This document shows positions 2,901 to 42,020 of a stretch of DNA of 64,000 nucleotides, piece by piece. A program made the position numbers and the translations under genes. The DNA is from Emiliania huxleyi CCMP1516. Taxonomy: Eukaryota. Below the pieces are notes generated by a model. The model was not told the origin of the DNA, searched no databases, and saw only the letters and a list, made by a program, of their open reading frames with translations. The DNA is taken from contig NW_005201392.1 of assembly GCF_000372725.1 (NCBI RefSeq), positions 128,521-192,520 on the forward strand. Reading direction: 5' to 3'. How positions within the stretch are numbered: position 1 is the first letter of the stretch; every line of letters begins with the position of its first letter.

Positions 2901-3440
2901 GGTGGAGGAGCGGCACTTCCACGCTGCGCTCGGCAAGCACAAGAAGGACGCGCCGTGCCTGACCCCGTCACTGCGGCCTCGTTTTTTTTTCGACGCGGGC
3001 TTCTGTCTGTAGGACTTTCGCGCGGTGCATGACGCCGTCACTGCCGCATTTTTTTTCTTTTTTACGCGGGCTTCTGTCTGTAGGACTTGCGCGCGGTGCA
3101 TGACGCCGTCAGGACAAAGAACATGGCGTCGGTGGTGCGGCTCTACTACCTCGAGAATGGCCTCAAGAAGAAGGAGGAGCGCGAGAAGGCGCGCGACGTG
3201 CGGCGCCGCTCAAAAAGCCTTGCGTCTGGCTTTCCTCAAGAAGAAGGAGGAGCGCGAGAAGGCGCGCGACGTGCGGCGCCGCTCAAAAAGCCTTGCGTCT
3301 GGCTTTCCTTTTGAGGGGGGGGCTGTTCTTAGGCGGCCGACGTGCAGCCGCTCACGCCGCCGCGCGGGTTTCTTTTTTCACGCGGCTGTCGTGTGTTAGG
3401 CGCGCGACGTGCAGCTGCTCAAGGAGGCGCGCTCGCGTGA
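2901..3440 (+). pseudogene. SANT/Myb-domain gene fragment with internal duplications
   Basis: Spliced reading VEERHFHAALGKHKK-DFRAVHDAVRTKNMASVVRLYYLENGLKKKEEREK-ARDVQLLKE resembles SANT domains (F..AL..H.KDF..V...V.TK....VV..YY). No 5' exon found; blocks are duplicated (e.g. 3165-3310). Confidence 0.5.
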
Positions 3441-3611
3441 GGCGGCGGCGGCGCGGGAGCCTAGAAGCGGAACATCTCCCCGTATCTCCCCATATCTCCC
3501 CGTATCTCGTGCCCTAGAAGCGGAACATCTCCCTTCCCCCGTATCTCCCCGTATCTGGCAGCACGGAGCCTAGAAGCGGAGTACACACGTACGTGTGTTC
3601 CAACTGGCGCT

Positions 3612-3757
3612 ACTGGCGGGGGATAGGGGGAGATAGGGGGAGATAGGGGGAGATAGGGGGAGATAGGGGAGATAGGGGGAGATAATGCACACAGGGGGCG
3701 CTACTGGCGGGGGATAGGGGGAGATAGGGGGAGATAGGGGGAGATAATGCACACAGG
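3612..3757. repeat. (gggggagata)n 10-nt minisatellite within a duplicated block
   Basis: Seen directly. The complementary motif atatctcccc also occurs at ~2870 and ~3475-3555. Confidence 0.85.
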
Positions 3758-4729
3758 GACCGGGGGGCGACGGGAACACCAAAGACGAGAGAGACAGACT
3801 TGTCCTGTCTCTCTGTTCCGTAGGCGCGAGAGCACCCGCGGCCCGCCATACCTGTGAACGGCGTCTCTTCACACCTCGGGCTGTGAATTCTTGTGACATG
3901 GCAGGCCACTCTCAAGCCCTACCAGCATCAGATCACCCATTTGGGGAGGGTTGACATCGTGATTTCCGCGGAAAATTTCTTTTTCTGCTGTGAAAATGGG
4001 AGGGCCCAGACCTACCCTACCTACCCCGTCATCAGGTCCGCCCAAGCAAAAAAAGTACACACCTGACCTCTCAGCTCAAAGGGGAATTTATTTGTTTGGG
4101 CAGTGTTCGACCGGGCTAGCTACTTGCCAGCGCCCGTCTTTGTTTTAGTAGTTAGTCTTGCGGGGTTGCCCTTGGCCGTTCGGCTGATTTATAAGATCCG
4201 CGAGACCTCGAGAGAGTAGTGCCGAAGGCGCTCTTTTTGATCGAGGCAGGGCGTTCGGCTGGCTTCCCTGTGTACTTCGCCACAGGTCCAACCCTCGCCT
4301 TTCCCGTTCCGCTCGCGCTTGCCCCGCCGCGTCGACGCACATATGGCCGCGGGGAGCTGCACGCCCGAGCGGCGCGACGCCTCCTGCTCACGCAACCCGC
4401 CGCTCCCTCTCCGCTCCCACCATGCGATGCGCTTCGATTTGGCGCCCGAGCGGCTACGCCCCCCTCGGCCTCACAATCCCTGCCACCTCCCGTTCGCAGG
4501 TGAGGCTGCTGCCATCGGGGAGCCGCGAGACGCGGCCGCTGCCACTCGTTCCCCACCCTTCCACCGAGCGAACCCGCCCGATTGCCCCCACTCTTTTCCG
4601 GCGAGAGAGCGACGCAGCCCGCTCGCTTGCCAATCGCTGCCCGGCTCCAGTCCTAGCGCCGAGGACACGAGAGAGTGTGCCGGTCGTCGCGATGCTAACG
4701 CCGAGGCGTGCTGCCCGTAGGTGTGGCAG

Positions 4730-5445
4730 TGACCTGGCTCGACCCTCTCTCTCTCTCTCTCTCTTTGAGCATGGCCTCTGCCATAGCAAACCACCACGCG
4801 TCACGGTCGATTTCTTTTTGTCTGTGGAGGCGAGGCTCGAAGGGGAGGGGAGGGCGTGGGGGGGGGGAGGGGGGGGGGGACTGGGGGGGGGAGTGACCTG
4901 GGTCGACCCTCTCTCTCTCTCTCTCTTTGAGCATCGCCTCTGCCTTCATTAGCAAACCACCACGCGTGACGGGCGATTTCTTTTTGTCTGTGTAGGCCAA
5001 GCTCCAAAGGGAAGGAGGGGAAGGCCTGGGGGGGGGGGGGGGGGGTTACTCGGGGGGGAGGAAACCGGGTTGAACCCCCCTTTTTTTTTTTTGGGAAGGG
5101 CTTTGGCTTTTTTTAGAAAACACCCCGGGGGGGGGGGGGGAATTTTTTTTTGCTTTGGTGGGGAAGCCTCTAATGGAGGTTGAAGCCTTTGGGGGCTTGG
5201 GGGGAATGGGTTGGGGGGGAGANNNNNNNNNNNNNNNNNNNNNNNNNNNNNNNNNNNNNNNNNNNNNNNNNNNNNNNNNNNNNNNNNNNNNNNNNNNNNN
5301 NNNNNNNNNNNNNNNNNNNNNNTCATTAGCAAACCACCACGGGTCGCGCGGTCGATTTCTTTTTGTCTGTGTAGGCGAGGCTCGAAGGGGAGGGGAGGGC
5401 GTGGGGGGGGTGGGGGGGAGGGGGTGGGGGGGGAGGAGGGGGGGC
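4730..5445. repeat. ~150-165 bp tandem unit ((CT)n, agcaaaccaccacg, G-runs), about 3 copies, broken by a gap
   Basis: Units start at ~4730 and ~4894, with a partial third from 5323. Confidence 0.75.
5223..5322. other. Assembly gap (100 N), preceded by low-quality homopolymer-rich sequence
   Basis: Run of n characters. Confidence 0.99.
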
Positions 5446-5652
5446 GGCGGGGTGGAGATTGCGACGATTGATCCAATTCTCGGAGATTCCTCGAGATATT
5501 CTCCTTCCTCCCCATATACCCCCATATACGCCCATATACGCCCATATACCCCATATACCCCCTGGACATCTCCATAGCAGTTTTTGACCCTCTTTCACAT
5601 GGTCATGATCCCGTAGGTGCTGACCTCTCCGTTCGCCGAGTGTTCCGCACAA

Positions 5653-5903
5653 GTCTCCAGTCCCCAGTAATAATAGTAGTGCTCTGCAGTCTCCAGTAAC
5701 CAGTCATACACGAGTGCTCTGCACAGGCTCCAGTCCTCAGTCATAATAGGAGTGCTCTGCACAGTCTCCAGTAATCAGTAATAATAATGGTGCTCTGCAC
5801 AGTCTAGTGGCTCTGCACTGTCTCCAGTCCCCAGTCATAATAGGAGTGCTCTGCACAGTCTCCAGTGACCAGTAATAATAGTGGTGCTCTGCACAGTCTC
5901 CAC
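5653..5903. repeat. ~37-bp minisatellite with conserved core gtgctctgcacagtctccagt, about 7 copies
   Basis: Seen directly. The intervening segments are AT-rich and related to each other. Confidence 0.85.
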
Positions 5904-5958
5904 TAACTCCAACCAGTAGCACTTTACTTCCACACGTTGTCCTTCACACAGCCTTCAC

Positions 5959-8900
5959 ATGAACCCGTCACACAGCCTTCTCCATGAGCTGCATCTATTG
6001 ACTCTCTTTGGCGTGCATACCCCCGCGCGCTGCAGGAACTCGATCAACATGCTCGACAAGCTCAAACGCGAGCTGGTGCCGGCCGCCGGTGACAAGCTCG
6101 TGCTCAAGCTCTCTCCTCCGCCGCCGCCGCTTGCTGACAAGCAGGCTTGTGCTTGCGCGCACGTGACAATGCGCTCCCACCTGCAAGACGTATCCTCTGG
6201 CCTTCTGGCTGACACAGGCGTCGCTGGCGGGCAACACGACCGTCAACGCTGCCGGAGGCGAGGCCGCCGGCATCCCGTCCGAGGGCAAGCCCGCTTCGCT
6301 CGAGGACGTCATCCCGTCCGTCATCCCGTCGGGCGAGCCCGCTTCGCTCGAGGACGTCATCCCGTCCGAGGGCGAGCCCGCTTCGCTCGAGTACGTCGGC
6401 GTCGTGTTTGCGGCGTCGGTAGGCGCATCGTTCGCCGGCGCCGAGACCTCGCGGCGCCTCACGTTCACCGTCGACAAAACCTCGTGCCCGCCACTTCCGT
6501 CACCGCCCTTGTCCGTCATCGACTCTGCCGGAGGCAAGCACGACGGCGAGAGCGAGCCCGCGTCGCTCAATGACGTCATCGGCAACGGCAATGACGTCCC
6601 GTCCGAGTCTGCGCCGACGGCTCCTGTCGGCATCACGTCGCTGTCGCCTTCGCTCCTCGGAGCCGAGGTGAGTGTGCGCACGCCAAGAGCACTTTATGTG
6701 CAATCTCCCCGTCTCCGAACAGCTGCGTCCGCTCTCGCCCACAGGCGTGCGGCGTCAAGGACGACGTCAAGGCCGCGCCCAAGCCCGCAGTGGACACGGC
6801 CAAGCCCGACGGCGATGTGGACGAGATCTACTTGTCGTCGCCGCCGTCGCACCTCGGAGCCGAGGTGAGTGTGCGCACGCCAGGATTGTCATCATCTCTA
6901 CGGTCTCCCTGTCTCCGCACACTTGCGTGTTCTCCCCTCACCCAGGCGTGCGGCATCAAGTCCGCCGCCGCCGAGGAGCTCGCCGCCAAGTCCGCCGCCG
7001 CCGAGGAGGACGCCGAGTCGGCCACCGAGGAGGCGACCGCCGAGGAGGCGGCCACCAAGAAGGCGACCACCGAGGAGGCCGCCGCCAAGTCCGCCACCGA
7101 GGAGGAGTCCGAGGAGGCAGCCACCGAGGAGGCCGCCGCCGAGGAGTCCGCCACTGAGGCCGTGGTCGCCGAGGAGTCCGCCACCAAGTCTGCCGCAGCC
7201 GAGGAGTCCTCCGCCACCAAGTCCGCCGCCACCGAGGAGTCCGACAACAAGTCTGCTGCCGCCGAGGAGTCCTCCGCCACCAAGTCCGCCGCCGCCGAGG
7301 AGGCCGCCACCAAGTCCGCCGCCGAGGAGTCCGCCACCAAGTCCGCCGTCGCCGAGGAGTCCTCCGCCACCAAGTCCGCCGCCGCCGAGGAGTCCGCCAC
7401 CAAGTCCGCCGTCGCCGAGCCTGCCGTGGATTGCATGGCGCTTGTCCGCTCGGTTGGCCACCTCCCGACCCCGCCTTTACGCCGCCGCCGCCGCCCTCGC
7501 CGCCGCCGCTCTCGCCGCCGCTCTCACCGCCGCGCCTCACACGCGCCCGCCATCCTCGCTCATGACCGAAGCCCGCGCGCCTCAGGCGCAGCACGAGGCC
7601 AAGAACGAGAAGAACAAGGCGCCGACCAAGGCGGAGAAGAAGGACTGCGCCGCCGGCGTCGCCAACGAGGCTCGCCCCCATCCGCCCTGCCTGCCTTCCT
7701 CGCTGCCATCGGCCAGCCTATGCCGTGCGCGGCTGCATCGCACCTCACTCTCCAGCCGCCCCGTCCCCCGCCGTCGCCGCCGCCCGTTGCTGCCGGCCTC
7801 GTCTCCACGCCCTCGCCACGGCACCGCCCTCGCCGCCGGCGCCCGCCACACCGCCGCCGCCACCGCCGCCGCCGCGCCGTCATGCGGCTTCAACCCACCT
7901 CCCACCCTCCCCACCGCCGGCACTGCACCTCCCCACCCAATCCACCGCCCCCTTCATAGGTACGAGTGAACTCGATCAACATCATGGCAGAGAACAAGAC
8001 GGCAGGGAAGGTCGGCATCATGCCGGCCGACGTCTTCTCCGCGCCGCCCCTCGGAGCCAAGGCGGTGCGTGTGTGCGCGTGTCGCAGATCTCCACTCTCC
8101 TTCCAGCACGCTCCCCATTCCCCCTCAAGGCGTGCGACAAGAATGACGTCGTGAAGGGCGTCCCCGAGGCCAAGTCTGGCGCGGAGGCCTCCCTCGACGA
8201 GAGCACCCTCAAGAAGGACCCGGCCGCGGAAAAGGACCCCGCCGCGGACAAGGTCGACTCGGACAAGGCCAAGGCCATGTCCTCCGCCCACGCGCCGAGC
8301 GCCGTTTTCTGGTCCAAGCTTGACCCGCCGACGTCCCCCAACGGCACCAAAGAAGCGCCGGCTCTCAAGCCGGTCACCGAAGACGCGCCGGCTTTCAAGC
8401 CGGTCACCGCCGGCGGCGCGCCGCTGCCGTCGATCAAGGAGTTTCCAGCGGAGGAGCCCGCCCCTTCGGTGCGCCTCGCACGCTTGCACACGCGGAGCCC
8501 CAACTATGACGCACCCACCGTTTGCGCGCGCGCAGGGCATCGCCGACTGGACCACCCCGTCGAACCCGCGCCGCAAGACGCGCCGCAAGAACGGGCGCAA
8601 GGGCGCGTCCGCCCCGATCGTCCGCACCAAGAGCACCCCGGTCGGCGGCAGCAACGGGTTCGGATGCCTGCTCGGAACGGACGGCAACGAGGGCATCCTC
8701 GGTGGCAACGGCAAGGCGACCGGCGGCTCCACGCCGTCGACCACAGACTCGGTGCTCGCCGCCTGCATACATGCGGCCTCCTCCCCCGCTCGCCGCTCAA
8801 CCGCCAGTCTCGCGCCCTCCTGTTCAGGGCGCGACGGCCAACGTCGAGACGACCACGATTACCACGCCGGAGGGCTCCGTCTCTGCCTCCGGCTGGTTCT

Positions 8901-9100
8901 CTTGGCCCAAGTTCTGCCCGTCCTACTTGCTCCGCCTCTTTGGCATCCTCGCGCTGCTCTGCCTCGGAACCGCGTTTGCGCTCTCCTCGTACTCTGCCAC
9001 CTCCGCGCTTCTCTCCTCGCAGCGGTACGAATCCCCGTGGCCGACATCGCCTCCCGCAACGTTCGCAAAGTCATTCACGCCGGCCGAACTCGATGACGAG
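5959..9100 (+). CDS. Multi-exon Ala/Glu/Ser/Thr-rich low-complexity protein with one TM helix; may be the N-terminus of the downstream receptor
   Basis: Coding-like exons bounded by AG and GT/GC (e.g. 6219-6667, 6745-6864, 6946-~7430, 8131-8469, 8536-8751, 8828-9100). EESSATKSAAA repeats and hydrophobic LLRLFGILALLCLGTAFAL. Start uncertain. Confidence 0.5.
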
Positions 9101-9296
9101 GCATACGCGCGTAGAAGCATAGACACGTTGCGGATGTTTGTACTCGCAGCCCCTGATTCACGCGATGCTCTGACACTCACACACCGTATTCACACCCTGA
9201 CGATGGCATATTCACCTGTAGGCATACATGGTGAACTCAATACCGATCCCACAAGAGACCTCCGACCTCGAGACCACAGCAGCGCCGTCACTGCAG

Positions 9297-12200
9297 AATG
9301 CATGTGGCGAATGCGTCGCGTGCAAGACACCTTATGGGTGCTATCCCTACGTTCTTTGGGATTATGGCGGACCACCGAACGCTGAAGATTGCATTAATTA
9401 CTTTGGTGGCATTGATTGCTCGCCGCACCTGCCGCACCCGCCTCAAATGGCACCAACTCCACCGCCATCGTTACCACCTTCACCACCTTCACCGCCGCCT
9501 TCGCCGTCTTCGCCGCCTCCCATCCCGCCGCCGCCGCTCCTCCCTGGCGGCTACTTCATCACCGGCCCGTGCTCGCTCACCGACGGCGGCTCGTGCGCCA
9601 CATCGCCAAACTACCCGAACAGCTACGGCATCAACGAGGCGTGTACCATCAGCGGCGTGCCGCCGGTCGAGCTGGAGGTGATCGGCTTTGATGTGGATGG
9701 AACCCTCTGCGCAGAGATTCTCTGCCGTCAATGCGGCAGCTGCGGTTGTGACTATCTCACCGTCAACGGCGTTAAGTACTGCGGCACCTCGGGGCCGAGT
9801 GGCGCGGTGGCGGTGGACGGCGTCATCGAGTGGTTCTCGAATGGCTACATAGTCGGGCCGGGCTGGAAGGCGCGCCCCTGGTCCCTCTCGCTCCCCTTCT
9901 TTCTCCTCTCTGATGCCCACCTCCCTCTGCCGTCAGATCTGCTGGGCGACCCGGCCGCCTTCACCGGCTTCACCGCCATCATCGCCCCCGCCTCCTCCGC
10001 CCCCGCCGGTCTCCCCCGGCTTCGATGTCGTCGCGGAAACCGAGAACGAGCTCCGCTCCCTGATCGAGGGGGTTGCTGCCAGCACCTCAATCTATCTGCC
10101 GCCGGGTGCGCACTTCGAGCTGGGCAGCGAGATACATCAACATAGCATCAGCTGCGTCTCCAACATCAATGTGACCGTCGCGAGCAGCGGCGAGGGCGCG
10201 ACGCTCGACGGCCGGGGACAGACCGGGCTCTTTTACCTCTCGGGCGGCTGCAGCCTCACCCTGCGGGGGCTGACCCTCGTCAACGGGAGGGTGGACGGGA
10301 GGATGGACGGCGGCGGCGGCGTTGTGCACGCTTACGGCGCAGGCGACGTCGAGATCATCGACTCGACGGTCAGAGATTGCTCGGCTGGCGAGTACGGGGT
10401 GCGCCGCGTAGAGCTAGCCGCACTCCAGCAGCGCCGCACGGCAGCGGGCTGAGAGATCAGAGGGTCACCCCGCTCTCTCCTCGCAACCGCAGGACGGCGG
10501 GGGCGGCGTCGTCTACGCGGAGGGCAGCGGCGCGGTCTCGATAATCGGCTCGACCGTGTCGGGCTGCTCTGCTCGAGTGCGCCGCGTAGAGCTAGCCGCT
10601 TGCAGCGGCGTACGGCAGCGGGGCGAGAGATAGAGAGGGGCCACGGGCTGCCTCACCCCGCTATCTCTCCTCGCAACCGCAGTACGGCGGGGGCGGCGTC
10701 ATCTACGCGGATGGCAGCGGTGCGGTCTCGATAATCGGCTCGACCGTGTCGGGCTGCTCTGCTCGAGTGCGCCGCGTAGAGCTAGCCGCTTGCAGCGGCG
10801 TACGGCAGCGGGGCGAGAGATAGAGAGGGGCCACGGGCTGCCTCACCCCGCTATCTCTCCTCGCAACCGCAGTTCGGCGGCGTCGTCTACGCGGATGACA
10901 GCAACACTCACGTGACCGACTCCAACATCTCCGGCTGCACTGCCACGCGAGGCGGCGCAGTGTACGTGAACTCAGGCTCACGAGCCAGCCTGGCCCGCTC
11001 AACCATCTCCAACTGCATCGCCTCAGAGTCTGGCGGCGGCCTCTACTCGGCGGGAGGGCGCACCTCCCTTAGCGACGGCACCCTCATCAGCGGCTGCACT
11101 GCACCGGCGGGGAGCTCAATCTTCCTACTCGCTGGCGAGGTCTCCTACACCCTCCCCGCCCCAGCCGGTCGCTGGCTGCCGAACGCGCGCTGCGAGGTGT
11201 ACCGGGAGGCGTGCCCTTACGATCCGAGCCTCGTCGGGGAGCGGGATAAGGCAAAGGCTTGCCTCGAGCACCGCGAAGACTGCGCGCTCAACCTCGTCGT
11301 TCAGAACAACGTCGGCCCGTGGTACTGCCAGAAGCCGACCAACGTACAGCCGTGCAACTGGGTGGACGACTCCTCCCTCCTCGGAGCGAGCATCTACCAG
11401 CTACCGCTGTTGCCCGTCGACGAGGACTTCCCTTTTGCCTGCGCCGCCGGCCTCCTCGGCTCGGCCGACCCAAAGTACCAGTCGAGCAGCAGCTGCGCCG
11501 GCCGCTGTCCCGCAGGCTCCCAATGCCCCGCAGAGGCAACCTATGAGGCGCTGCCCTGCGATGCGGGTCATCACTGCCCAAAGGGGACGAGCGTGCCCCT
11601 TCCCTGCCCCGCTGGATCGTACTCGAACGCCACCAACCTCACCGACGCGAGCGATTGCACCGACGCCTCGCCGGGCCACTTCGCCACCACGGGCTCGACG
11701 CAGCAGACGGCGTGCGCCAAGGGCAGCTACGCCGCCACGGGCGGCCTCTCCGAGTGCGAGCCGTGCGCTGGCGGGAGCTACCAGAACGACACGGGCGCGA
11801 CGTCCTGCCGCGACTGCGAGCAGGGCAGCTACTGCGCCAAGGGCGCGGCGGCGCCGCTGCCTTGCGGCGCGGGTACCTACTCGGACAAGTTGAACCTCGA
11901 CTCGGCGGGCGGCTGCGAGGACTGCCCAGAGGGCCACTTCTGCACCACCGGCAGCGTGGCTCCTGTGGCGTGCCGCTCCGGCACCTTCGCTTCCGGCTCG
12001 AACAACGCCGAGTGCGAGCCGTGCAAGGCGGGATCCTACCAGAACGCCACTGGTGCTGCCGGCTGCGTCGCGTGCGGGCTTGGCAGCTTCTGCCCGGTCG
12101 GCGCGTCCCTCGAGCTGCCCGCGACGTGCGAGCCGGGTACATACGCCAATGCCACTGACGACGACGGCTTGCCCGACTGCTTCGACTGTCCGGCGGGCTC

Positions 12201-15200
12201 GTCGTGCGGCGGCGGCGCCGCGCGTCCGACGCAGTGCGCGGCGGGCACGATCGCGCCGGCCGAGCGGATGGAGGCATGCGACAAGTGCGCGGGCGGGACC
12301 TACCAGAACGACACGGGCGCGACATCCTGTCGCGCTTGCGAGGCGGGCAGCTACTGCGCCGAGGGCGCGTCGGCGCCGCTGCCTTGCGTTGCGGGCAGCT
12401 ACTCGAACGCGACCAACCTCTCCGACGCGAGCGAGTGCACCGACGCCTCGCCGGGCTACTTCGCCACCACCGGCTCCACGCAGCAGACGGCGTGCGACAA
12501 GGGGTCGTACACGGACGCGGCCAAGCAGGGCGAGTGCACGCCCTGTTCCGGCGGCACGTACCAGGACGCGGAGGCGCAGACGGCGTGCAAGCCGTGCGAG
12601 GCGGGCGGCTACTGCGCTGTTGGCGCGGCGGCGGCGCTGCCGTGCGAGGCTGGCAGCTACTCGCGCGCCACCAACCTCTCCGCCGCGAGCGAGTGCACCG
12701 ACGCCTCGCCGGGCCACTTCGCCACCACCGGCTCCACCGAGCAGACGGCGTGCGCCAAGGGGTCGTACACGAACGAGACCAGGCAGGGCGAGTGCACGCC
12801 CTGCGCCGGCGGCACGTACCAGGACGCGGAGGCGCAGATGTCGTGCAAGCCGTGCGAGGCGGGCGGCTACTGCGCTGTTGGCGCGTCGGCGGCGCTGCCG
12901 TGCGAGGCTGGCAGCTACTCGCGCGCCACCAACCTCTCCGCCGCGAGCGAGTGCACCGACGCCTCGCCGGGCCACTTCGCCACCACCGGCTCCACCGAGC
13001 AGACGGCGTGCGCCAAGGGGTCGTACACGAACGAGACCAGGCAGGGCGAGTGCACGCCCTGCGCCGGCGGCACGTACCAGGACATGGGCGGCAAGACGGA
13101 GTGCAAGCCGTGCAAGCAAGGCAGCTTCTGCGAGCCGGGCGCGGCGGCGGCGCTGCCGTGCGAGGCTGGCAGCTACTCGAACAAGACGAATCTTGACTCG
13201 GCGGGCGGCTGCATGGACTGCCCTTTGGGCCACGCTTGCACCACTGGCAGCGCGACTCCCATGGCTTGCCGCGCCGGCACATTCGCATCCGGCTCGCGCA
13301 ACGCCGAGTGCGAGCCGTGCAAGGCGGGATCCTACCAGAACGCCATCGGTGCTGCCGGCTGCGTCCGGTGCGGGCTTGGCAGCTTCTGCCCGGTCGGCGC
13401 GTCGCTCGAACTGCCCGCGGCGTGCGAGCCGGGTACATACGCCAACGTCACGGACGGCGACGGCTTGCCCGACTGTTTCGACTGTCCGGCGGGCTCGTCG
13501 TGCGGCGGCGGGGCTGCGCCGCCGGCGGAGTGCTCGCCGGGCTCCGTCGCCGCCACGCCTGGACTCGCCAAGTGCGAGCGGTGTGAGCCTGGCACATCTT
13601 CCAGCGCCGGCAGCGAGTCGTGCAGCGAGTGCGCTGCAGGCACTTACGCCGCCAACTCCGGCCAGGGCCAGTGCGTCCCTTGCCCCCACCCCCTCAGTAG
13701 TGAGCGCGGCGCCGTCATCTGCTCCATCTGCCAGAAGGGCTTCTACCTGCTCCAGAGCGCCGACCCGGCCGACATCTTCTCCTCCCCGACCGACTACTGC
13801 AAGCCATGCCCGCCAAACGCAGAGTGCTCGGACGACACCTCGCTCGCGACCCTCGGCGTCCCAACCGGCTACTGGCGCGCCAGCCCCTCCTCCGCCGTGC
13901 TGACGGCGTGCCGCGCCTTTGGAGGGGATGGCCAGGCGGGCCAGGCGCGGTGTGTCGGCAATGTTGATCCGGGAGAGGCTAGCGGTCGGAGGGTGCAGGA
14001 GGCCGGCTTGGACTACTGCGCAGACGCCTTCGCCGGCCCCGAGTGCCAGCTCTGCCGCGAGCCGAACCACTACCTGGACGCCGACGGCGCCGCCTGCAAC
14101 GAGTGCGTCGCTGTCGGCACGGCGGCGGGGCGCATGGCGGGCACCGCCCTCGGCCTCTGCGTCGCGTTTGGCCTCGTGGCGTTGGCGTACTCAGTTCAGC
14201 GCGGGCAAACCGAGTGGAGGAAGGAGCGCTTCATCGGACTTCCCTTGCGCATCGCCGACCGCACCGGCGACGCGATTTACAAAATCGGCCTCATCCCCAA
14301 GTTCAAGATCTTGTTTGGCTTCTACCAGGTCTGCCTCGTCCTCTCCACCACCTACTCGGCGCGGCTGCCGGAACGGTACACGGGCTGGACGGAGGCGCTG
14401 GCCGAAGCCGTCTTCATCGACTGGTCGGGCGTCGTGCTGCCGGTGCAGTGCCTGCCGCACAAGTCCCGGCTCGTCGCCGTCGCGATCTCTCCCATCGGCG
14501 TCATCGCACTGCTCCTCTTTGCTGGCATTGTCTTGCGGCTCTGTGCTCGCTGGCGGCGTGCTCGGCGAGGGGCTGCGGAGCCACCGACGGCGCTGGCCGA
14601 AACTGACGATGCGGCGGTCTTTTCATGGCCTGCAGAGGTGGCGCTCGGCCTCCTCGACCTCAGGGGGGGGGGGGTTCGGGGCCAATTCTTTCTTTTCGGC
14701 CCTTTGGGGAGCGCCCCGATTTTGGCCCGGGGGTGTTTCCCGGGTCCTAACCCAAAAAAAAAAAACCCGCCCCCCCCCCCCCCCCCCCAAAACCCTTAGC
14801 TGTCGATGTGCGTGCGCAGGGCTACACCACCTCTGCGCCGGGCGAGACGCTCGCTCTGGTCGAGTACATGCGGCAGGACGCGAGCGTCGAGTGCGGCACC
14901 GACGAGCACGACTCCATCACGAGACTCGCCACCGGCTTCGTCGTCATCTGGCCGGTCGGCTCGCTAGTCCTCTACTCGGCCCTTCTTCTCGCATGCTACA
15001 AGCCGCTGCAGGCCAAGTCGCCGAACGCGCTGACGAAGGCCACCGCCTTCCTTCACCGGGAGTACAAAAGGAACTGGTACTGGTGGGAGGCGGCCGATCT
15101 GGCCCGCAAGCTCTTTCTGACGGGCTTCGTGCTGCTGGTTGCCGAGGAGGAGGACTCCTTTGTTCGTCTCGTCGTGGCGGTGCTCGTGTGTTCGTGCTAC

Positions 15201-17252
15201 GCCGTCGTGATCGCCCTGGTCCAGCCCTACAAGCGGTTCGGGGACAACATCCTCGCCGTGGTGCGCCCTTCGCCCAATCCCACACGCCCTTTGCGCTTGC
15301 TTGTGCTGCAGCTCTCAGCACACGCTTGGATCGTGGCCAGTCCATCACCCACCCCACACACGCCCTTCCCACTGCAGTCACTCTGAGCCCAACGGACGCG
15401 GCTCGCACTGCAGGCCACCAGCCTCGTCCTCCTCCTCCTCTTCCTCGGTGCCAGCTGGACCACCATCTTCCTCAACATCGAGTTGCGATTCCCCGGCGAC
15501 GAGCCGGGGCAGTCGGCCTCCGCCGTCCTCGGCTTCAGGTCTGAGAATGGACTGGTGAACTGGATGCTCGTCCTTGCTGCGGCTGCGCTCCTGATCTTCC
15601 TCGTGGGTACCATCATCGCCATCCGCCGCCTTGCCAAGGTCCCCACGATTCGCCTCGTCTTAACCAAGCAGCCCCCCGAGCTGGCTCTGGTGGAAGGCCT
15701 CACGTGGCACCTCTTCCTCTCGCACATCTGGTCAGTCCTGTGGTCAGAGGGAGAGGCGGCGTAGGAGAACCCGCCAGAACGACCCGCCACTCCGCGAATA
15801 GGTCCACCGGCCAAGACGCCGTCGCGGTCATCAAGAATGAGCTTAAGCTCTTGATCCCCGGCATCAAGATCTTCCTCGATGTGGACGATTTGAAGGACAT
15901 CGGGTCGCTGGAGGATTACGTTGACCGCACGCAGGTCATGCTCTTCTTCCTGTCGAAGGGCTACTTCCGCTCGAAGGCACTCCCCCAGCCCCTCCCTTTC
16001 CGAGAGTGCCTCGCTGTGTCGCCCACGACTACTCGTGCGCTCCTTGCCTGCAGAACTGCCTGCGCGAGATTCGGACGTCGCTCGAGAAGAGCAAGCCGCT
16101 CGTCCTCGTGCAAGAGGCGGATCCGGCCAAGGGCGGCGGGACGCTGCAGGCGCTCCCCGCCCACCCCCAGCTCTGACCCTGCGGGGATTGCTCTCGCCAC
16201 ACACGGCTCTGAGGGGCGGTGTCGCCGCCGCCGCCGCACGCCAGCACTCACTCACGCACACCGTCGCTGCACGACTGCAGGAGTTGCGAGCACAGTGCCC
16301 GGAGGTCCTCCAGCCGGAGATCTTTGACAGTGGGTGGGCGCAGACGACGTGGCACCGCATCGACGAGTATCAGCGTGTCTCGCTTAAGATCATCTCCGAG
16401 GTGCCGCCACGGACAACTCCCTGCAGCTGTTCTGCCGTCGCCTCGACCTTGACCGCCGCCCCCTCGCACCTACCCTCAGGCGCTCCTCCTCTGCTCGCCA
16501 CACTACCTGAACCTGACCTCCCTCCCGCTCTTCATCCCGGGCGAGGTCCAGGGCCAGCCGATCTCCTTCTCCAAGTCCGTCGTGCTCTGGGCCTCGCCGT
16601 TCGATGAGGGCGCAGACGAGCTGGCCAGCGAGCTCGCCACCAATTTCTCCGGCCTCACCGTCTCCACCGCCGAGGAGGCGGGCGACGCCACGCACATGCT
16701 TCTCTATCTGAACGCCGACACCTGGTCCGACGAGCGGCTGGCCGAGCAGGTCAAGCAGGCGCGCCAGGACAGGCTGAAGATCGTCATGGCGCACGAGAAC
16801 GACCTCGACCGCGGCGGCTGTGAGTTCGCCAAGTTTTTTGAGACCACGCCGCAGGAACGCTGCCGATCAGCGGTCGATCTTTTATGTCCCGCCCGCTCCA
16901 TGCCCCCCTTCCCCGCCGCCGCAGGAGCTCATCAACGCCGGGCTCTACGACGCCCTCGCCATTGCCTGCTTCCCCGGCCTGCACCATGAGGTGCGCTCCC
17001 CCGGCGGCACCTTTGCCACAGCGCCCGCCTCCTGAAGCGACTGATCTTGCACCCCCGGTCTCACAGGTGTCGCTCGTGCTGCTGGCCAAGGCTCTGGGCG
17101 CAACCCCGGTGAGCGCTCGCTCGAGCATCCGCGACTCGCTTTCGAATATCGGGCGCTTCACTACCGTGCCTCGCGGCTCGACGACGTCCGACCCAGTCGT
17201 TACCGAGGAGGATTCGCAGCTGGAGCAGCTGCCAGAGGTGGAGCAGGTGTAG
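9297..17252 (+). CDS. Large membrane receptor: CUB-like, right-handed beta-helix, Cys-rich ephrin-receptor-like (GCC2/GCC3) repeats, multi-TM region, TIR domain, second degenerate TIR
   Basis: Exons 9297-9869, 9937-10398, 10493-10576, 10683-10766, 10873-~14660, 14820-15260, 15414-15730, 15802-15976, 16054-16149, 16281-16400, 16480-16854, 16925-16990, 17067-17252. Motifs: SPNYPNSY...CDYLTVNG...GWKICW; CxxCxxGxY repeats; KFKILFGFYQV; FLHREYKRNWYWWE; HLFLSHIWSTGQD...IFLDVDDL...FLSKGYFRSKNCLRE. 14661-14797 is low-quality sequence. Confidence 0.85.
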
Positions 17253-17494
17253 AGGTGACGAGCAACTTTGCAGTTCGGCTCAAGCGGCAAGGGTTGGACG
17301 GTAATATCGTTTGTGCATTGTGTGGGCTTTGTGCACAGGGCGGGGTGGTAGGCGGTAGTGCTAGTGGGGCCCCGCCCCCCGCAAGCCGCGGTACTGTCCT
17401 ATAAATAATAAATAAAACGGACACCTCTACTCGGAGCATGACTCGGAGATGGGTAAAAGGGGGTACTGTCTACGGGAACGTGCACACACGTATT

Positions 17495-18226
17495 CTATGG
17501 GAGGTATGTGTGTATACTGTATTGATCAGCGCCGTGATCACCCCTAGAGCCGTACTCAACGCCTCCAAGCTGCTCGGTCATCACGTCGATGCAGTCCCCG
17601 TCCTCCAGCTCAAGCATTCTCGGGGTTTGGTGCGAGTTCACGCGCTCCCCATCGAACAGGAACCGCAGCGTGCTCCTCGACGAATCACCGATGCCGCGCG
17701 TGTGGCAGTACTGGTCAGTCATCGGGGCAAGACTGTTGTCCATCTCGACGATGTACGCGTCCTCCCGGCCGTCCTGGTCAACTACCTTCACGGCTATGGT
17801 GCAGCCCATGCCGCCGCTGCTAGAGCCCGACGTCGAGAGGTTGAGAATGCGCTTCCGCATCTGCATGCCGCGTCCGACGCCCGGGGGCAGCGAAAGGCTG
17901 CCCCGTGACGCAATCTCCCACGCATCTAGGTGGTCCGTCAAGAAGGAGTGCAGCCCGTGCAGCTTTACGTCGAAGTGTGCGTCCTCGTCGAGCTTCTCCA
18001 GCGACACACAGCCGCTCTCGTCAGCAATGGCATCAAGATCCTCGTCGTAGTGGACGACGGGGTCTCCTTGGACTTTCGCTGCGTCGGCGAGCGGCTTGAG
18101 GTGCTCGAGCTTGCCGCAGCACACGATCCGCGCAGCAATCGGGTCGAAGTGGAAACCCGAAGCGCGGACTAACCCTCGAATCCCGTGTGAGCGGCCGCAC
18201 ATTGCTCGGTACCCCCCCCTGCACAT
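17495..18226 (-). CDS. Intronless ORF with C-terminal SUMO-like (Rad60-SLD) domain
   Basis: IAVKVVDQDG...LRFLFDGERVNSHQTPRMLELEDGDCIDVMTEQLGG, then a 21-aa tail. True start uncertain. Confidence 0.7.
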   Translation of the reverse strand: MCRGGYRAMCGRSHGIRGLVRASGFHFDPIAARIVCCGKLEHLKPLADAAKVQGDPVVHYDEDLDAIADESGCVSLEKLDEDAHFDVKLHGLHSFLTDHLDAWEIASRGSLSLPPGVGRGMQMRKRILNLSTSGSSSGGMGCTIAVKVVDQDGREDAYIVEMDNSLAPMTDQYCHTRGIGDSSRSTLRFLFDGERVNSHQTPRMLELEDGDCIDVMTEQLGGVEYGSRGDHGADQYSIHTYLP

Positions 18227-31339: not shown

Positions 31340-33427
31340 ATGTCGCATCGTTGCGAGGAGCGTCGCTGGCGTGTTGAGCAACGGCGCGCCGAGTACGGAC
31401 GCGAAGAGCGGCGATGGCGGGGCGAGCCGCGACGGCGGTCGCGATCGCGCGATGAGCCGCGGCGGGATGAGCTGCGACGGCGCGACGAGCGTTGGCAAGG
31501 GCACCATGATGGGCGGCATGACGAGCGGCGCGGCTACGACGACTCTTGGTGCAGTGGGCGCGAGCAGCGATGGCACGCTGAGCCACACGCCGCCGAGCGA
31601 TGGCGCGACGAGCCATTGCAAGGCGAGCGACGGCCGCATCATGACGGGCGGCACGTTGAGCGGCGCGGCTGCAACGACCGACCAAGCATAGGCGAGCGCG
31701 AGCGCGACTTGTACGATCGGCGCGATGATCGGTTCTACGATCCCAGGCGCGACCATGACCGGCGCGACCGCCGCGGCGAGGGGCAGCCTCAGCACAGCGA
31801 CCGCCGGTTGAGTCCGCCGATGCGTGGTGCGGGATCGCGCGACGAGAGGCACACCTCTGCTGCCGGAGGTCAGCTCGATGCTAAGCAGCTCAGCGGCCGT
31901 ATCTCGCATGCCAGCGGCGCCGACGAGCTGCTCAGGCTCTTTGCTGCCCACAGCGCGAACTTGAACCACATCCACGCTGCGAACCTGTGGAACAAACTGG
32001 GCAAGCAGCGCATCGAGCGGCGGCACGAGGGGCGGCTTGAGCAGCTGGTGCAGCGCACGCTCGACCTGGTTTCTTCGTGCCGAGCACGCGAGCTGGCCAA
32101 CGTGTCTCACGGCGTTGCAAGGTGCGGCTTGCAGGCGAGGGTGGTGCGCCCGTTGTTCGTAGCGGTGGCGGAGGCGGCGGTGCGTGGCGGGCTGGCTGGC
32201 TTCACGCCTCAAGCCCTGGCCAACACGGTGTGGGCGTATGCGACGGCGGGCGTGGCTGCGGACGCGCTGTACGCGGCGGTGGCGGAGGCGGCGGTGCGCG
32301 GCGGGCTGGCTGGCTTCAACCCTCAGAACCTGGCCAACACGGTGTGGGCGTATGCGACGGCGGGCGTGGCTGCGGACGCGCTGTACGCGGCGGTGGCGGA
32401 GGCGGCGGTGCGCGGCGGGCTGGCTGGCTTCAAGCCGCAGGCCCTGGCCAACACGGTGTGGGCGTATGCGACGGCGGGCGTGGCTGCGGACGCGCTGTAC
32501 GCGGCGGTGGCGGAGGCGGCGGTGCGGAGCGGGCTGGCTGGCTTCAACCCTCAGAACCTGGCCAACACGGTGTGGGCGTATGCGACGGCGGGCGTGGCTG
32601 CGGACGCGCTGTCCTCAGATTGGAGCGCGGCGGCAATCAACAACCGCTCTTACCCCGCATGGTGGGCCACCGGGTGGGGCGTAGCAGAGATGCTGGGCGA
32701 GCCCGACGCTGGCGGCGAGTGTTCCGATCGCGGCAGCGCATGGGCGCCTTCCCACAACGGCTCGGCAGCGGAGTGGGTCAGGCTGGAGTTTGGAGATGAG
32801 CCGTTGCGCATGATTGGCTTGCAGGTGCGCGAGGTGCTGGCTGCGCCGTTCATACTCCGCGTCGAGGTTGAGAGCGAGGAGGCGCAGCGTTGGACAATAT
32901 GGAATGGGACAGATGAGACGCCGTGTCCCGGCTGGTTTGACCTCAGCTACGACAGCGGCAGTCAGGCCATTGCCGCGGTCTACATCTTCACCCAGGCCGA
33001 CGGCTTTGAGGAGATTGATGCCGTTTCGTTGGAAGTGCCCATTCCATGCTCGCCCTCGCCGCCGCCCGAGTCACCCTCAACTCCCCTGCCCGCCTTCGCC
33101 GTGCTCACCGCGCGGCCGCTGGCCGTCGTGCTTGCGCTAGTCGCCGCGTGGCTCCTCCTCTTTGCATACCTCTGCCTGCGGGTGCGGCGACGGAGCCGAT
33201 CTGTAGGGCTGCGCGCTGCAAAGGACTTGGAGGGGCCCACACTCCTCTCGCCACCAGGTCCAGCGGCCGAACGACGGGTGGGCGAGCCGGGAAGCCCGAC
33301 GGACGCCCAAACTATAGGCCCCAGCATTGACTTGGACAGCGCCCTCCGTAGTCATGGGTGCGCTCGCCTTGTGCCTCTCGAGAGAGAGAGTCTGAGAGCT
33401 TGCACACATGCAAGGCCACATTTATAG
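31340..33427 (+). CDS. Chimeric ORF: OPR-like repeat protein N-terminus (4 repeats) fused to an extracellular-type galactose-binding-like domain, PSPPP linker and TM helix
   Basis: 31355-32611 is nearly identical to 39435 onward. Abrupt in-frame switch at 32612 to ...SAWAP...EWVRLEF...EEIDAVSL. No RAP domain. Confidence 0.6.
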   Translation: MSHRCEERRWRVEQRRAEYGREERRWRGEPRRRSRSRDEPRRDELRRRDERWQGHHDGRHDERRGYDDSWCSGREQRWHAEPHAAERWRDEPLQGERRPHHDGRHVERRGCNDRPSIGERERDLYDRRDDRFYDPRRDHDRRDRRGEGQPQHSDRRLSPPMRGAGSRDERHTSAAGGQLDAKQLSGRISHASGADELLRLFAAHSANLNHIHAANLWNKLGKQRIERRHEGRLEQLVQRTLDLVSSCRARELANVSHGVARCGLQARVVRPLFVAVAEAAVRGGLAGFTPQALANTVWAYATAGVAADALYAAVAEAAVRGGLAGFNPQNLANTVWAYATAGVAADALYAAVAEAAVRGGLAGFKPQALANTVWAYATAGVAADALYAAVAEAAVRSGLAGFNPQNLANTVWAYATAGVAADALSSDWSAAAINNRSYPAWWATGWGVAEMLGEPDAGGECSDRGSAWAPSHNGSAAEWVRLEFGDEPLRMIGLQVREVLAAPFILRVEVESEEAQRWTIWNGTDETPCPGWFDLSYDSGSQAIAAVYIFTQADGFEEIDAVSLEVPIPCSPSPPPESPSTPLPAFAVLTARPLAVVLALVAAWLLLFAYLCLRVRRRSRSVGLRAAKDLEGPTLLSPPGPAAERRVGEPGSPTDAQTIGPSIDLDSALRSHGCARLVPLERESLRACTHARPHL

Positions 33428-39419: not shown

Positions 39420-42020
39420 ATGTCCTACCTAGGTGAGGAGCGTCGCTGGCGTGTTGAGCAACGGCGCGCCGAGTACGGACGCGAAGAGCGATGGCGGGGC
39501 GAGCCGCGACGGCGGTCGCGATCGCGCGATGAGCCGCGGCGGGATGAGCTGCGACGGCGCAACGAGCGTTGGCAAGGCGAGCCGCACCATGACGGGCGGC
39601 ATGACGAGCGGCGCGGCTACAACGCCTCTTGGTGCAGTGGCCGCGAGCAGCGATGGCACGCTGAGCCACACGCCGCTGAGCGATGGCGCGACGAGCCATT
39701 GCGAGGCGAGCGATGGCCGCATCATGACGGGCGGCACGTTGAGCGGCGCGGCTGCAACGACCGACCAAGCATAGGCGAGCGCGAGCGCGACTTGTACGAT
39801 CGGCGCGATGATCGGTCCCACGATCCCAGGCGCGACCATGACCGGCGCGACCGCCGCGGCGAGGGGCAGCCTCAGCACAGCGACCGCCGGTTGAGTCCGC
39901 CGATGCGTGGTGCGGGATCGCGCGACGAGAGGCACACCTCTGCTGCCGGAGGTCAGCTCGATGCTAAGCAGCTCAGCGGCCGTATCTCGCATGCCAGCGG
40001 CGCCGACGAGCTGCTCAGGCTCTTTGCTGCCCACAGCGCGAGCTTGAACCACATCCACGCTGCGAACCTGTGGAACAAACTGGGCAAGCAGCGCATCGAG
40101 CGGCGGCACGAGGGGCGGCTTGAGCAGCTGGTGCAGCGCACGCTCGACCTGGTTTCTTCGTGCCGAGCACGCGAGCTGGCCAACGTGTCTCACGGCGTTG
40201 CAAGGTGCGGCCTGCAGGCGAGGGTGGTGCACCCGTTGTTCGTAGCGGTGGCGGAGGCGGCGGTGCGGAGCGGGCTGGCTGGCTTCACCCCTCAGGCCCT
40301 GGCCAACACGGTGTGGGCGTATGCGACGGCGGGCGTGGCTGCGGACGCGCTGTACGCGGCGGTGGCGGAGGCGGCGGTGCGCGGCGGGCTGGCTGGCTTC
40401 ACCCCTCAGAACCTGGCCAACACGGTGTGGGCGTATGCGACGGCGGGCGTGGCTGCGGACGCGCTGTACGCGGCGGTGGCGGAGGCGGCGGTGCGCGGCG
40501 GGCTGGCTGGCTTCAACCCTCAGAACCTGGCCAACACGGTGTGGGCGTATGCGACGGCGGGCGTGGCTGCGGACGCGCTGTACGCGGCGGTGGCGGAGGA
40601 GGTGGTGCGCGGCGGGCTGGCTGGCTTCAACCCTCAGGCCCTGTCCAACACGGTGTGGGCGTATGCGACGGCGGGCGTGGCTGCGGACACGCTGTACGCG
40701 GCGGTGGCGGAGGAGGCGGTGCGGAGCGGGCTGGCTGGCTTCAAGCCTCAGGACCTGGCCAACACGGTGTGGGCGTATGCGACGGCGGGCGTGGCTGCGG
40801 ACGCGCTGTACGCGGCGGTGGCGGAGGTGGCGGTGCGCGGCGGGCTGGCTGGCTTCAACCCTCAGAACCTGGCCAACACGGTGTGGGCGTATGCGACGGC
40901 GGGCGTGGCTGCGGACGCGCTGTACGCGGCGGTAGCGGAGGCGGCGGTGCGCGGCGGGCTGGCTGGCTTCAAGCCGCAGGAGCTGGCCAACACGGTGTGG
41001 GCGTATGCGACGGCGGGCGTGGCTGCGGACGCGCTGTACGCGGCGGTGGCGGAGGCGGCGGTGCGCGGCGGGCTGGCTGGCTTCAAGCCGCAGGAGCTGG
41101 CCAACACGGTGTGGGCGTATGCGACGGCGGGCGTGGCTGCGGACGCGCTGTACGCGGCGGTGGCGGAGGTGGCGGTGCGCGGCGGGCTGGCTGGCTTCAA
41201 CCCTCAGAACCTGTCCAACACGGTGTGGGCGTATGCGACGGCGGGCGTGGCTGCGGACGCGCTGTACGCGGCGGTGGCGGAGGCGGCGGTGCGCGGCGGG
41301 CTGGCTGGCTTCAAGCCGCAGGAGCTGGCCAACACGGTGTGGGCGTATGCGACGGCGGGCGTGGCTGCGGACGCGCTGTACGCGGCGGTGGCGGAGGTGG
41401 CGGTGCGCGGCGGGCTGGCTGGCTTCAAGCCGCAGGCCCTGGCCAACACGGTGTGGGCGTATGCGACGGCCGACTATTATCACCAGGCGCTGCTTGCCGA
41501 CTGCTCGCGCGTGATCAGCGACTCGCTCGCGCGGGATCCGTCGAGGTGGAGCGAGGAAGCCCGCTCTCAGCTGCACCAGTGGCAGCTCTGGCTCTCCCTG
41601 GAGCGAGGAGCAGACGGGCAGCAGCACCTCCTCTCCGAGTCCCAGCGCAAGCTCTGCTGCGACGCCATGCAAGGCACCGAAGTTACGATCTCGCGCTTAC
41701 AGCGCTCCGTCGCGGCTGCCCTCGCCGCCGTCCAGCACGGCTTCGAGGAGGAGCACCTCGAGCCGCGCACCGGCTACTCGCTCGACCTGGCGCTGCCCTC
41801 TTCACGCGTCGCTGTCGAGGTGGACGGCCCCTCTCACTTCCTGCTGCCCGACGGCCGGGGCGTGCGCAAACCCAATGGGCCAACGCTGCTCAAGCGGCGC
41901 CTCCTCAGGGCGGCTGGCTGGAGGGTGATCAGCGTTCCATTCTACGAGTGGGACGGCTTCGCGACAGCCAATGGGCAGCAAACCTACCTGGAGAGGGCGG
42001 TCGCCCCGCTGTTGGGCTAG
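39420..42020 (+). CDS. Intronless OPR-like (38-aa repeat) RNA-binding protein with C-terminal RAP domain
   Basis: 11 near-identical 114-bp repeats GLAGFxPQxLxNTVWAYATAGVAADALYAAVAEAAVRG plus one degenerate repeat. RAP motif YSLDLA...VAVEVDGPSHF...TLLKRRLL...GWRVISVPFYEW. Confidence 0.9.
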   Translation: MSYLGEERRWRVEQRRAEYGREERWRGEPRRRSRSRDEPRRDELRRRNERWQGEPHHDGRHDERRGYNASWCSGREQRWHAEPHAAERWRDEPLRGERWPHHDGRHVERRGCNDRPSIGERERDLYDRRDDRSHDPRRDHDRRDRRGEGQPQHSDRRLSPPMRGAGSRDERHTSAAGGQLDAKQLSGRISHASGADELLRLFAAHSASLNHIHAANLWNKLGKQRIERRHEGRLEQLVQRTLDLVSSCRARELANVSHGVARCGLQARVVHPLFVAVAEAAVRSGLAGFTPQALANTVWAYATAGVAADALYAAVAEAAVRGGLAGFTPQNLANTVWAYATAGVAADALYAAVAEAAVRGGLAGFNPQNLANTVWAYATAGVAADALYAAVAEEVVRGGLAGFNPQALSNTVWAYATAGVAADTLYAAVAEEAVRSGLAGFKPQDLANTVWAYATAGVAADALYAAVAEVAVRGGLAGFNPQNLANTVWAYATAGVAADALYAAVAEAAVRGGLAGFKPQELANTVWAYATAGVAADALYAAVAEAAVRGGLAGFKPQELANTVWAYATAGVAADALYAAVAEVAVRGGLAGFNPQNLSNTVWAYATAGVAADALYAAVAEAAVRGGLAGFKPQELANTVWAYATAGVAADALYAAVAEVAVRGGLAGFKPQALANTVWAYATADYYHQALLADCSRVISDSLARDPSRWSEEARSQLHQWQLWLSLERGADGQQHLLSESQRKLCCDAMQGTEVTISRLQRSVAAALAAVQHGFEEEHLEPRTGYSLDLALPSSRVAVEVDGPSHFLLPDGRGVRKPNGPTLLKRRLLRAAGWRVISVPFYEWDGFATANGQQTYLERAVAPLLG

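What the first reader, a model, noticed from the sequence alone, without database searches (positions are those of the whole stretch)
9297..17252. Adhesion-GPCR-like multi-pass receptor ending in tandem TIR domains
Seen after splicing: a CUB-like/beta-helix/Cys-rich ectodomain, a multi-TM bundle, then a TIR with FLSH, FLDVDDL and NCLRE, plus a second degenerate TIR-like segment (HMLLYLN...IVMAHE). Knowledge: the Glu in the CxxE helix is catalytic in NADase TIRs (SARM1, plant TNLs, bacterial ThsB), whereas Toll-like receptors are single-pass. Inference: an algal surface immune or sensory receptor that signals via NAD+ cleavage, with one active and one possibly inactive TIR.
Basis: partly seen in the sequence, partly recalled or inferred. 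Interest (0 to 1): 0.8.

Follow-up and report, generated by a model that had tools for sequence, protein, structure and literature searches.

The report
Nine-pass algal receptor with tandem TIRs
This spliced gene of a bloom-forming marine alga encodes a large protein with a predicted nine-helix membrane bundle (not the seven of a GPCR) and two TIR domains; it likely works as a surface receptor that signals by cutting NAD+, and it belongs to a large family with swappable outer domains that may be an immune-receptor repertoire of these algae.

The parts
7984..9139 (+). Upstream spliced 'leader' module (charged low-complexity region plus one hydrophobic helix); candidate true N-terminus and membrane anchor (about 55% likely part of this gene); may extend to about 6019
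   Evidence: Introns 8065-8129, 8469-8535, 8752-8827 seen as joints in RNA-like runs; joins in frame through GT..AG 9140-9221, the same join as in named model P0307 = EMIHUDRAFT_200377; no RNA bridge seen and 47 donor/acceptor pairs would keep the frame
9297..9545 (+). Cys-containing segment and proline-rich linker (exon starts at an acceptor, 9297 or 9222)
   Evidence: Sequence; no RNA cover at 9304-9420 in 4 runs
9546..9948 (+). CUB-like domain (GC-AG intron 9870-9936)
   Evidence: Best PDB match neuropilin-2 CUB, E 0.13, motifs aligned; no Pfam hit: weak
10015..11169 (+). Right-handed beta-helix (GGVVYA-type repeats; two repeats duplicated together with their intron)
   Evidence: Pfam Beta_helix E 9e-4; 256-nt exon+intron duplicate at 94%
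11497..14109 (+). Cys-rich repeat stalk (GCC2/GCC3, ephrin-receptor-like) and membrane-proximal Cys domain; no GAIN/GPS
   Evidence: Ephrin_rec_like E 1.1e-33, 8 stretches; 83 Cys in aa 601-1400 with periodic spacing, 16 N-glycosylation sequons in the ectodomain
14128..15638 (+). Nine-helix membrane bundle (TM1-3 in exon 5, TM4 at the garbled stretch, TM5-9 in exons 6-7)
   Evidence: Hydropathy; AlphaFold of paralogue P0108, pLDDT 91.6, pTM 0.88; TM5-9 also in the P0007 model; PF06011 hits in 11 of 84 proteins scanned, none on this gene's own products
14662..14795 (+). Garbled assembly stretch hiding the end of exon 5 (26 codons, TM4) and a splice donor
   Evidence: Homopolymer runs of 12, 5, 12, 19 nt, none in the flanks; 78 in-frame nt in the RNA contig; 26 residues in P0267
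15705..16491 (+). TIR1, split over exons 7-11; Glu on helix alpha-C at 16066-16068
16579..17093 (+). TIR2, degenerate copy: five strands kept, alpha-B and BB-loop motif lost, Gln (16747-16749) at the Glu position
   Evidence: Secondary structure of model; hhalign to TIR1 probability 96%; Glu 43, Gln 12, Asp 5, other 13 of 73
16855..16924 (+). Intron with a non-canonical GA donor (GA..AG)
   Evidence: Genomic GA also in unspliced contig X1/8 with 0 differences; P0007 and P0267 are spliced exactly there; other relatives have GT, GC or GG donors at this place
17094..17252 (+). Disordered cytosolic tail and stop
   Evidence: pLDDT under 50; X8 contig 29 covers 17065-17298

Best explanation
The gene encodes a spliced protein with a long Cys-rich ectodomain, a predicted nine-helix membrane bundle and two cytosolic TIR-fold domains, and it likely acts as a surface receptor whose first TIR cleaves NAD+ into a signalling nucleotide when the ectodomain is engaged. 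Shown: the domain order, splicing of the 3' half, both TIR folds (predicted with high confidence), the invariant Glu of TIR1, the degenerate state of TIR2, and a family in which this constant core is coupled to many different ligand-binding ectodomains. Inferred: (1) an odd helix count puts the ectodomain outside and the TIRs inside; (2) the CUB-like and beta-helix tip, held out by the Cys stalk, binds a surface glycan or protein of a virus, bacterium or the alga's own covering; (3) binding clusters receptors or shifts the bundle so that TIR1 active sites are completed, as for SARM1 and plant TIRs (recalled); (4) TIR2 is a built-in structural partner that holds TIR1 off or completes its site; (5) the product is an ADP-ribose isomer that triggers a defence programme. 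The bundle is most likely a distant relative of fungal Pkd2/FLC proteins (PF06011), not of GPCRs.
For: RNA linkage and gap-free spliced proteins. SARM1 and plant NADase TIRs are the top fold matches; the NCLRE Glu aligns with the WCxxE Glu of Cat1 and RPS4 (E 0.6-0.9, weak on its own). TIR1 pocket-side residues nearly invariant: Glu 73/73, Tyr291 73/73, Asp263 72/73, Trp237 71/73 (rows were picked with a TIR1 profile, so some circularity). Of 55 top membrane-bundle relatives with a tail of 150 aa or more, 35 carry TIR1+TIR2, 9 TIR1 only, 1 TIR2 only, 10 neither profile, 5 of these a different TIR type by eye. Ectodomains among 27 long relatives: Venus flytrap 7, beta-helix 5, FG-GAP 3, MAM, LamG, F5/8, Kelch, EGF 1 each. 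PMC12489294: multi-pass TIR genes rise during EhV infection; same-family cogent2584_i1 is annotated TRP|TIR and cogent2074_i1 is up in all five resistant comparisons. Unicellular-eukaryote TIRs with this Glu were shown active in 10.64898/2026.04.20.719644.
Against: No activity, ligand or localisation data. The same preprint notes TIRs that keep the Glu yet are inactive (TLR2, IL-1R9/10). The family has Asn where plant and Cat1 TIRs have Trp four residues before the Glu. This gene is not among the 15 virus-responsive TIR genes of Table S9 by eye, and model number 200377 is absent from that supplement. Venus-flytrap ectodomains suggest small-molecule sensing, so the family need not be immune. 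The PF06011 link is indirect (none for P0007, P0267, P0108; 1 of 84 above cut-off). The 5' end and signal anchor lack RNA support.
Confidence: 0.55

Rival explanations
1. Channel-enzyme: the nine-helix bundle is itself a Ca2+-permeable or mechanosensitive channel like fission-yeast Pkd2, the Cys stalk tethers it to the cell covering, and the TIR pair gates it or makes a cADPR-like Ca2+ messenger; the role is mechanical or envelope sensing rather than immunity.
For: Nine helices as in Pkd2 (passages); PF06011 hits in 11 of 84 relatives and an Atlas cluster with PF06011 in 12% of members at score 0.90; conserved charged residues in the bundle (Lys186, Glu403, Arg428 of the P0108 part); Pkd2 reported Ca2+-permeable on stretch (PMC9727806, title and start of abstract only).
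Against: No pore was tested; only 4 to 5 helices' worth of sequence match PF06011; the Pkd2 lipid-binding domain is replaced; wide ectodomain variety fits ligand recognition better than one mechanical role.
Confidence: 0.17
2. Scaffold receptor: like Toll-like receptors, the TIR pair only recruits cytosolic TIR adaptors; the Glu is structural.
Against: Glu 73/73 in TIR1 against 43/73 in its own duplicate is the pattern of a catalytic residue; most non-TLR eukaryotic TIRs keep the Glu and several protist ones are active.
Confidence: 0.17
3. True adhesion or class C GPCR with an appended TIR, signalling through G proteins.
For: Large adhesion-type ectodomain; Venus-flytrap plus Cys-rich ectodomains in 7 of 27 relatives; one relative (P0152) has a GPS motif, far from the membrane; insignificant profile hits to class A GPCR helices (E 0.85-7).
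Confidence: 0.04
4. This copy is a broken or chimeric paralogue (frameshift at 14662, no proper start), and only other family members work.
For: Garbled stretch in the window; no RNA cover at 9304-9420 and no bridge to the leader; the public model of the locus stops at 10823.
Against: Spliced, in-frame transcripts across the garbled stretch with 5 differences in 1,036 nt and gap-free proteins P0007 and P0267; intact 3.8-kb exon. These transcripts could still come from another strain or a near-identical copy.
Confidence: 0.07

Closest known systems
Gephyrocapsa (Emiliania) huxleyi TIR genes of Fromm et al. 2025 (PMC12489294): cogent2584_i1, 373cFLNC_128518286, cogent2074_i1, cogent9830_i1
   Same: Same TIR subtype (SHxW-TGQD, FLDVDDL, GYFxSxNCLRE; cogent2074_i1 50 of 82 residues identical, counted by eye), conserved Glu, several predicted with multiple helices; cogent2584_i1 is tagged TRP|TIR in Table S2.
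   Different: The paper treats them as separate partial transcripts; in the parts I read it names no nine-helix fold, no second TIR, no ectodomain repertoire and tests no activity. This gene is not in its list. It calls cogent2074_i1 cytoplasmic, but that transcript starts in the helix-to-TIR linker and maps to residue 391 onward of its model, so it is probably a 5'-truncated receptor of this family (inferred).
SARM1 TIR and plant TNL TIRs (RPS4, RUN1, RPP1)
   Different: Those are cytosolic, gated by ARM/SAM or NB-ARC/LRR (recalled); here the TIR hangs from a multi-pass bundle, has Asn instead of Trp before the Glu, and has a degenerate TIR partner in the same chain.
Toll-like and IL-1 receptors
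   Same: Ectodomain, membrane, cytosolic TIR layout.
   Different: Single-pass, LRR or Ig ectodomain, one TIR, mostly scaffolds (recalled); here nine-pass, Cys-rich stalk, two TIRs.
Fungal Pkd2/FLC 'TRP-like' proteins (Pfam PF06011)
   Same: Nine predicted helices with an outside N-terminal domain and inside C-terminal tail; weak Pfam hits in relatives.
   Different: Pkd2 has a small Ig-like lipid-binding domain and a disordered tail with no enzyme; match covers only part of the profile and is indirect for this gene.
Adhesion GPCRs
   Same: Very large modular ectodomain (CUB-like, Cys repeats) on a multi-pass bundle.
   Different: No GAIN/GPS, nine helices, no 7tm signature, enzyme-type tail.
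Dictyostelium TirE and TirC (10.64898/2026.04.30.722052)
   Same: TirE has two diverged tandem TIRs; TirC is a membrane-anchored protist NADase.
   Different: TirE is an RCC1-repeat protein; TirC has a single helix and a Cap12-type TIR.

Membership tests
Adhesion GPCR | Seven-helix membrane domain | tested here: not met
   Nine membrane-length helices in the model of paralogue P0108 (pLDDT 91.6), matching this gene's hydropathy; no 7tm Pfam family in 84 proteins
Adhesion GPCR | GAIN domain with GPS motif next to the membrane | tested here: not met
   No GPS or GAIN hit on exon 5 at E up to 1; motif scan empty; the proximal domain is a small Cys-rich beta domain
Adhesion GPCR | GPCR fold by structure comparison | tested here: inconclusive
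Adhesion GPCR | G-protein coupling | not testable with these tools
   Needs experiment
Enzymatic (NADase) TIR domains | TIR fold | tested here: met
Enzymatic (NADase) TIR domains | Conserved Glu on helix alpha-C (TIR1) | tested here: met
   Glu300 on helix 295-306; 73 of 73; aligned with the Glu of Cat1 and RPS4
Enzymatic (NADase) TIR domains | Conserved Glu and BB loop (TIR2) | tested here: not met
   Gln457 in this gene, Glu in 43 of 73 relatives; no alpha-B helix in the model; no FLDVDDL equivalent
Enzymatic (NADase) TIR domains | Trp four residues before the Glu (feature recalled; seen in Cat1 and RPS4 rows) | tested here: not met
   Asn in 67 of 73
Enzymatic (NADase) TIR domains | NAD+ cleavage on oligomerisation | not testable with these tools
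   Needs assay
Toll-like receptor | Single membrane pass and LRR ectodomain | tested here: not met
   Nine helices; no LRR hit in the exons
Pkd2/FLC TRP-like (PF06011) | Nine-helix membrane domain | tested here: met
   against the Pkd2 description
Pkd2/FLC TRP-like (PF06011) | PF06011 profile match | tested here: inconclusive
   None for P0007, P0267, P0108; 11 of 84 proteins hit (thresholds 0.1, 0.001, 0.02), 1 above the curated cut-off (P0067, E 5e-7); Atlas rank 7, score 0.90
Pkd2/FLC TRP-like (PF06011) | N-terminal Ig-like lipid-binding domain | tested here: not met
   Cys-rich repeats occupy that place
Pkd2/FLC TRP-like (PF06011) | Calcium permeability | not testable with these tools
   Needs reconstitution

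The most novel reading that the evidence does not exclude
Haptophytes have built their own class of immune receptor: a nine-helix bundle with no solved structural relative couples a repertoire of swappable ectodomains directly to an enzyme TIR plus a pseudo-TIR in one chain, making a nucleotide second messenger at the cell surface; the TIR gene that marks all virus-resistant G. huxleyi strains (cogent2074_i1) is a member, so this family is the missing sensor arm of antiviral resistance in the bloom-forming alga.
Probability: 0.35. Interest if true: 0.88.

Novelty: new variant of a known kind. Interest (0 to 1): 0.66.

Why it matters
How coccolithophores sense the giant viruses that end their blooms is an open question. 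If right, this names a concrete receptor family and makes the question testable: a 145-residue TIR1 can be assayed in E. coli, and the ectodomain repertoire gives candidate ligand-binding tips. It would also add a receptor layout, multi-pass bundle wired straight to a TIR enzyme with a built-in pseudo-TIR, outside animals and plants, and give a function to a widespread nine-helix module (4,399 clusters at 50% identity) for which two searches found no solved structure. The public model of this locus stops at the beta-helix, so such genes are probably under-counted.

Full report
1. Observation. The region is an intron-rich, GC-rich eukaryotic gene on the + strand. Exons 9297-9869, 9937-10398, 10493-10576, 10683-10766, 10873-about 14739, 14820-15260, 15414-15730, 15802-15976, 16054-16149, 16281-16400, 16480-16854, 16925-16990 and 17067-17252 give one frame of 2,281 aa with one terminal stop, allowing 26 unknown codons at 14662-14795. 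Three donors are GC and one is GA. An upstream exon is 100% identical to the named model EMIHUDRAFT_200377 (P0307), and every named close relative is Emiliania (Gephyrocapsa) huxleyi or Prymnesium parvum, so the window is most likely E. huxleyi.

2. Splicing and linkage. Of 10 runs listed I laid 7 (X1, X2, X8, X10; X8, X4, X5, X6). X8 contig 28 lies in four pieces from 13627 (Cys stalk) to 16856 (TIR2) with 13 differing letters in all; its internal gaps equal my exons to the base (391 and 78 nt). P0007 and P0267 come from contigs of 2,014 and 2,198 nt, shorter than the genomic span, and align without gaps (96.3% over 575; 625 columns). P0267 fills the garbled stretch with exactly 26 residues of TM4. 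Exon 5 is a single 3.8-kb frame from beta-helix to TM3. Against: exons 1-4 are linked only by canonical splice sites and by joints of paralogues, and 9304-9420 has no cover in four RNA-like runs. Position 9297 is an acceptor. An upstream spliced leader with one hydrophobic helix can join in frame through 9140-9221, as the public model does, but 47 donor/acceptor pairs would keep the frame and only 1 of 186 TIR1-bearing proteins in my set has this leader. The N-terminus is open.

5. The family. Of the best 150 bundle relatives, 57 do not reach the last helix and 38 have short tails (left out); of the 55 left, 35 carry TIR1+TIR2, 9 TIR1 only (some with low scores, probably other TIR types), 1 TIR2 only, 10 neither, five of which show another TIR type by eye. 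Among 27 long relatives the ectodomains include Venus flytrap (7), beta-helix (5), FG-GAP (3), MAM, LamG, F5/8, Kelch and EGF. Ten other CCMP1516 models and six P. parvum proteins are named; a metagenome scan confirmed 129 of 179 pattern matches; Atlas clusters for the tandem TIR are all eukaryotic, commonest haptophyte. A constant signalling core under shuffled binding domains is the layout of a receptor repertoire.

6. Mechanism. Most likely (0.55): ligand binding at the tip clusters or rearranges the receptor, TIR1 cleaves NAD+ to an ADP-ribose isomer, TIR2 regulates it in cis. Architecture, folds and conservation are shown or predicted with high confidence; topology, ligand, catalysis, TIR2's role and the immune role are inferred. 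Rivals: channel-enzyme or envelope sensor (0.17), scaffold-only TIRs (0.17), broken copy (0.07), true GPCR (0.04).

7. What is known. PMC12489294 (I read passages, section 20 in full, Table S9 with nucleotide cells cut at 400 letters, and single rows of Tables S2, S5-S8; not the PDF figures or the large text file, which may bear on novelty) reports 15 virus-responsive TIR genes with a conserved Glu, some with several helices, and proposes receptor-like signalling. At least three have this gene's TIR subtype. cogent2584_i1 is tagged TRP|TIR and rises about 5-6 log2 in three early columns (labels not seen); cogent2074_i1 rises 8.7 log2 in recovered cells and 6-15.7 log2 in five resistant comparisons. 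Its listed transcript begins in the helix-to-TIR linker and maps from residue 391 of its model, so its 'cytoplasmic' label may reflect truncation (my inference). This gene is not in that list. 10.64898/2026.04.20.719644 (passages, section 9; supplements closed) shows Glu-dependent activity of protist TIRs and a 3'cADPR-making clade that includes haptophytes; whether it tested this family I could not see. 10.64898/2026.04.30.722052 (passages, section 5) maps eukaryotic TIR clades and notes tandem TIRs in TirE, with no mention of haptophytes or Emiliania in the main text. Eight literature searches found no description of a nine-helix bundle joined to tandem TIRs; the library lacks most subscription papers.

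8. Verdict. A real, expressed (3' half), well-supported gene. TIR receptors with several helices in this alga are already noted in print, so this is a new variant of a known kind, but the architecture, the pseudo-TIR partner, the ectodomain repertoire and the non-GPCR bundle appear undescribed and make algal virus sensing directly testable. Interest 0.66.

Noticed in passing
window 6019-9139 (+): A spliced 'leader' module (KSAAAEE repeats, basic stretch, hydrophobic helix) recurs in at least 10 named CCMP1516 models in front of unrelated cargo: beta-helix, MAM, GH16, PA, a nucleotide-sugar transferase; also in two long JGI proteins. It may be a shared anchor cassette or a mobile, exon-capturing element.
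   Followed up: partly
window 16855-16924: GA-AG intron, confirmed by unspliced and spliced records; public models of paralogues P0116 and P0117 read through or mis-splice at this same place, also starting with a Glu codon, which suggests GA donors recur and defeat gene prediction.
   Followed up: partly
window 10399-10872: Beta-helix repeats grew by tandem duplication of exon plus intron (256 nt, 94% identical); RNA-like runs show joints with other repeat orders, hinting at repeat-number variation among copies.
   Followed up: partly
window 11611-13542: The Cys stalk contains recent internal duplications (586 nt at 92%, 644 nt at 83%), so stalk length is changing fast.
   Followed up: no
window 3084-10823: The public model EMIHUDRAFT_200377 covers only the leader, CUB-like domain and start of the beta-helix and ends in a retained intron; no named record identical to the TIR exon was found among proteins up to 2,000 aa.
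   Followed up: yes
window 17495-18226 (-): Open frame ending in a SUMO/ubiquitin-like domain (LRFLFDG......QLGG), convergent with the receptor gene; label by eye.
   Followed up: no
window 31355-32612 and 39435-41470: A 1.26-kb duplicated segment (97%) ending in arrays of a 114-bp unit, inside long open frames.
   Followed up: no
P0136, P0145, P0182, P0209, P0231: The same nine-helix bundle is joined to a different TIR subtype (SHYK...FLDS...WCLLE), and P0207 to a HET-like TIR with EF hands, so TIRs were coupled to this bundle more than once.
   Followed up: partly
L043: A metagenome relative has a stop codon inside the NCLRE motif: a decayed copy or a sequencing error.
   Followed up: no
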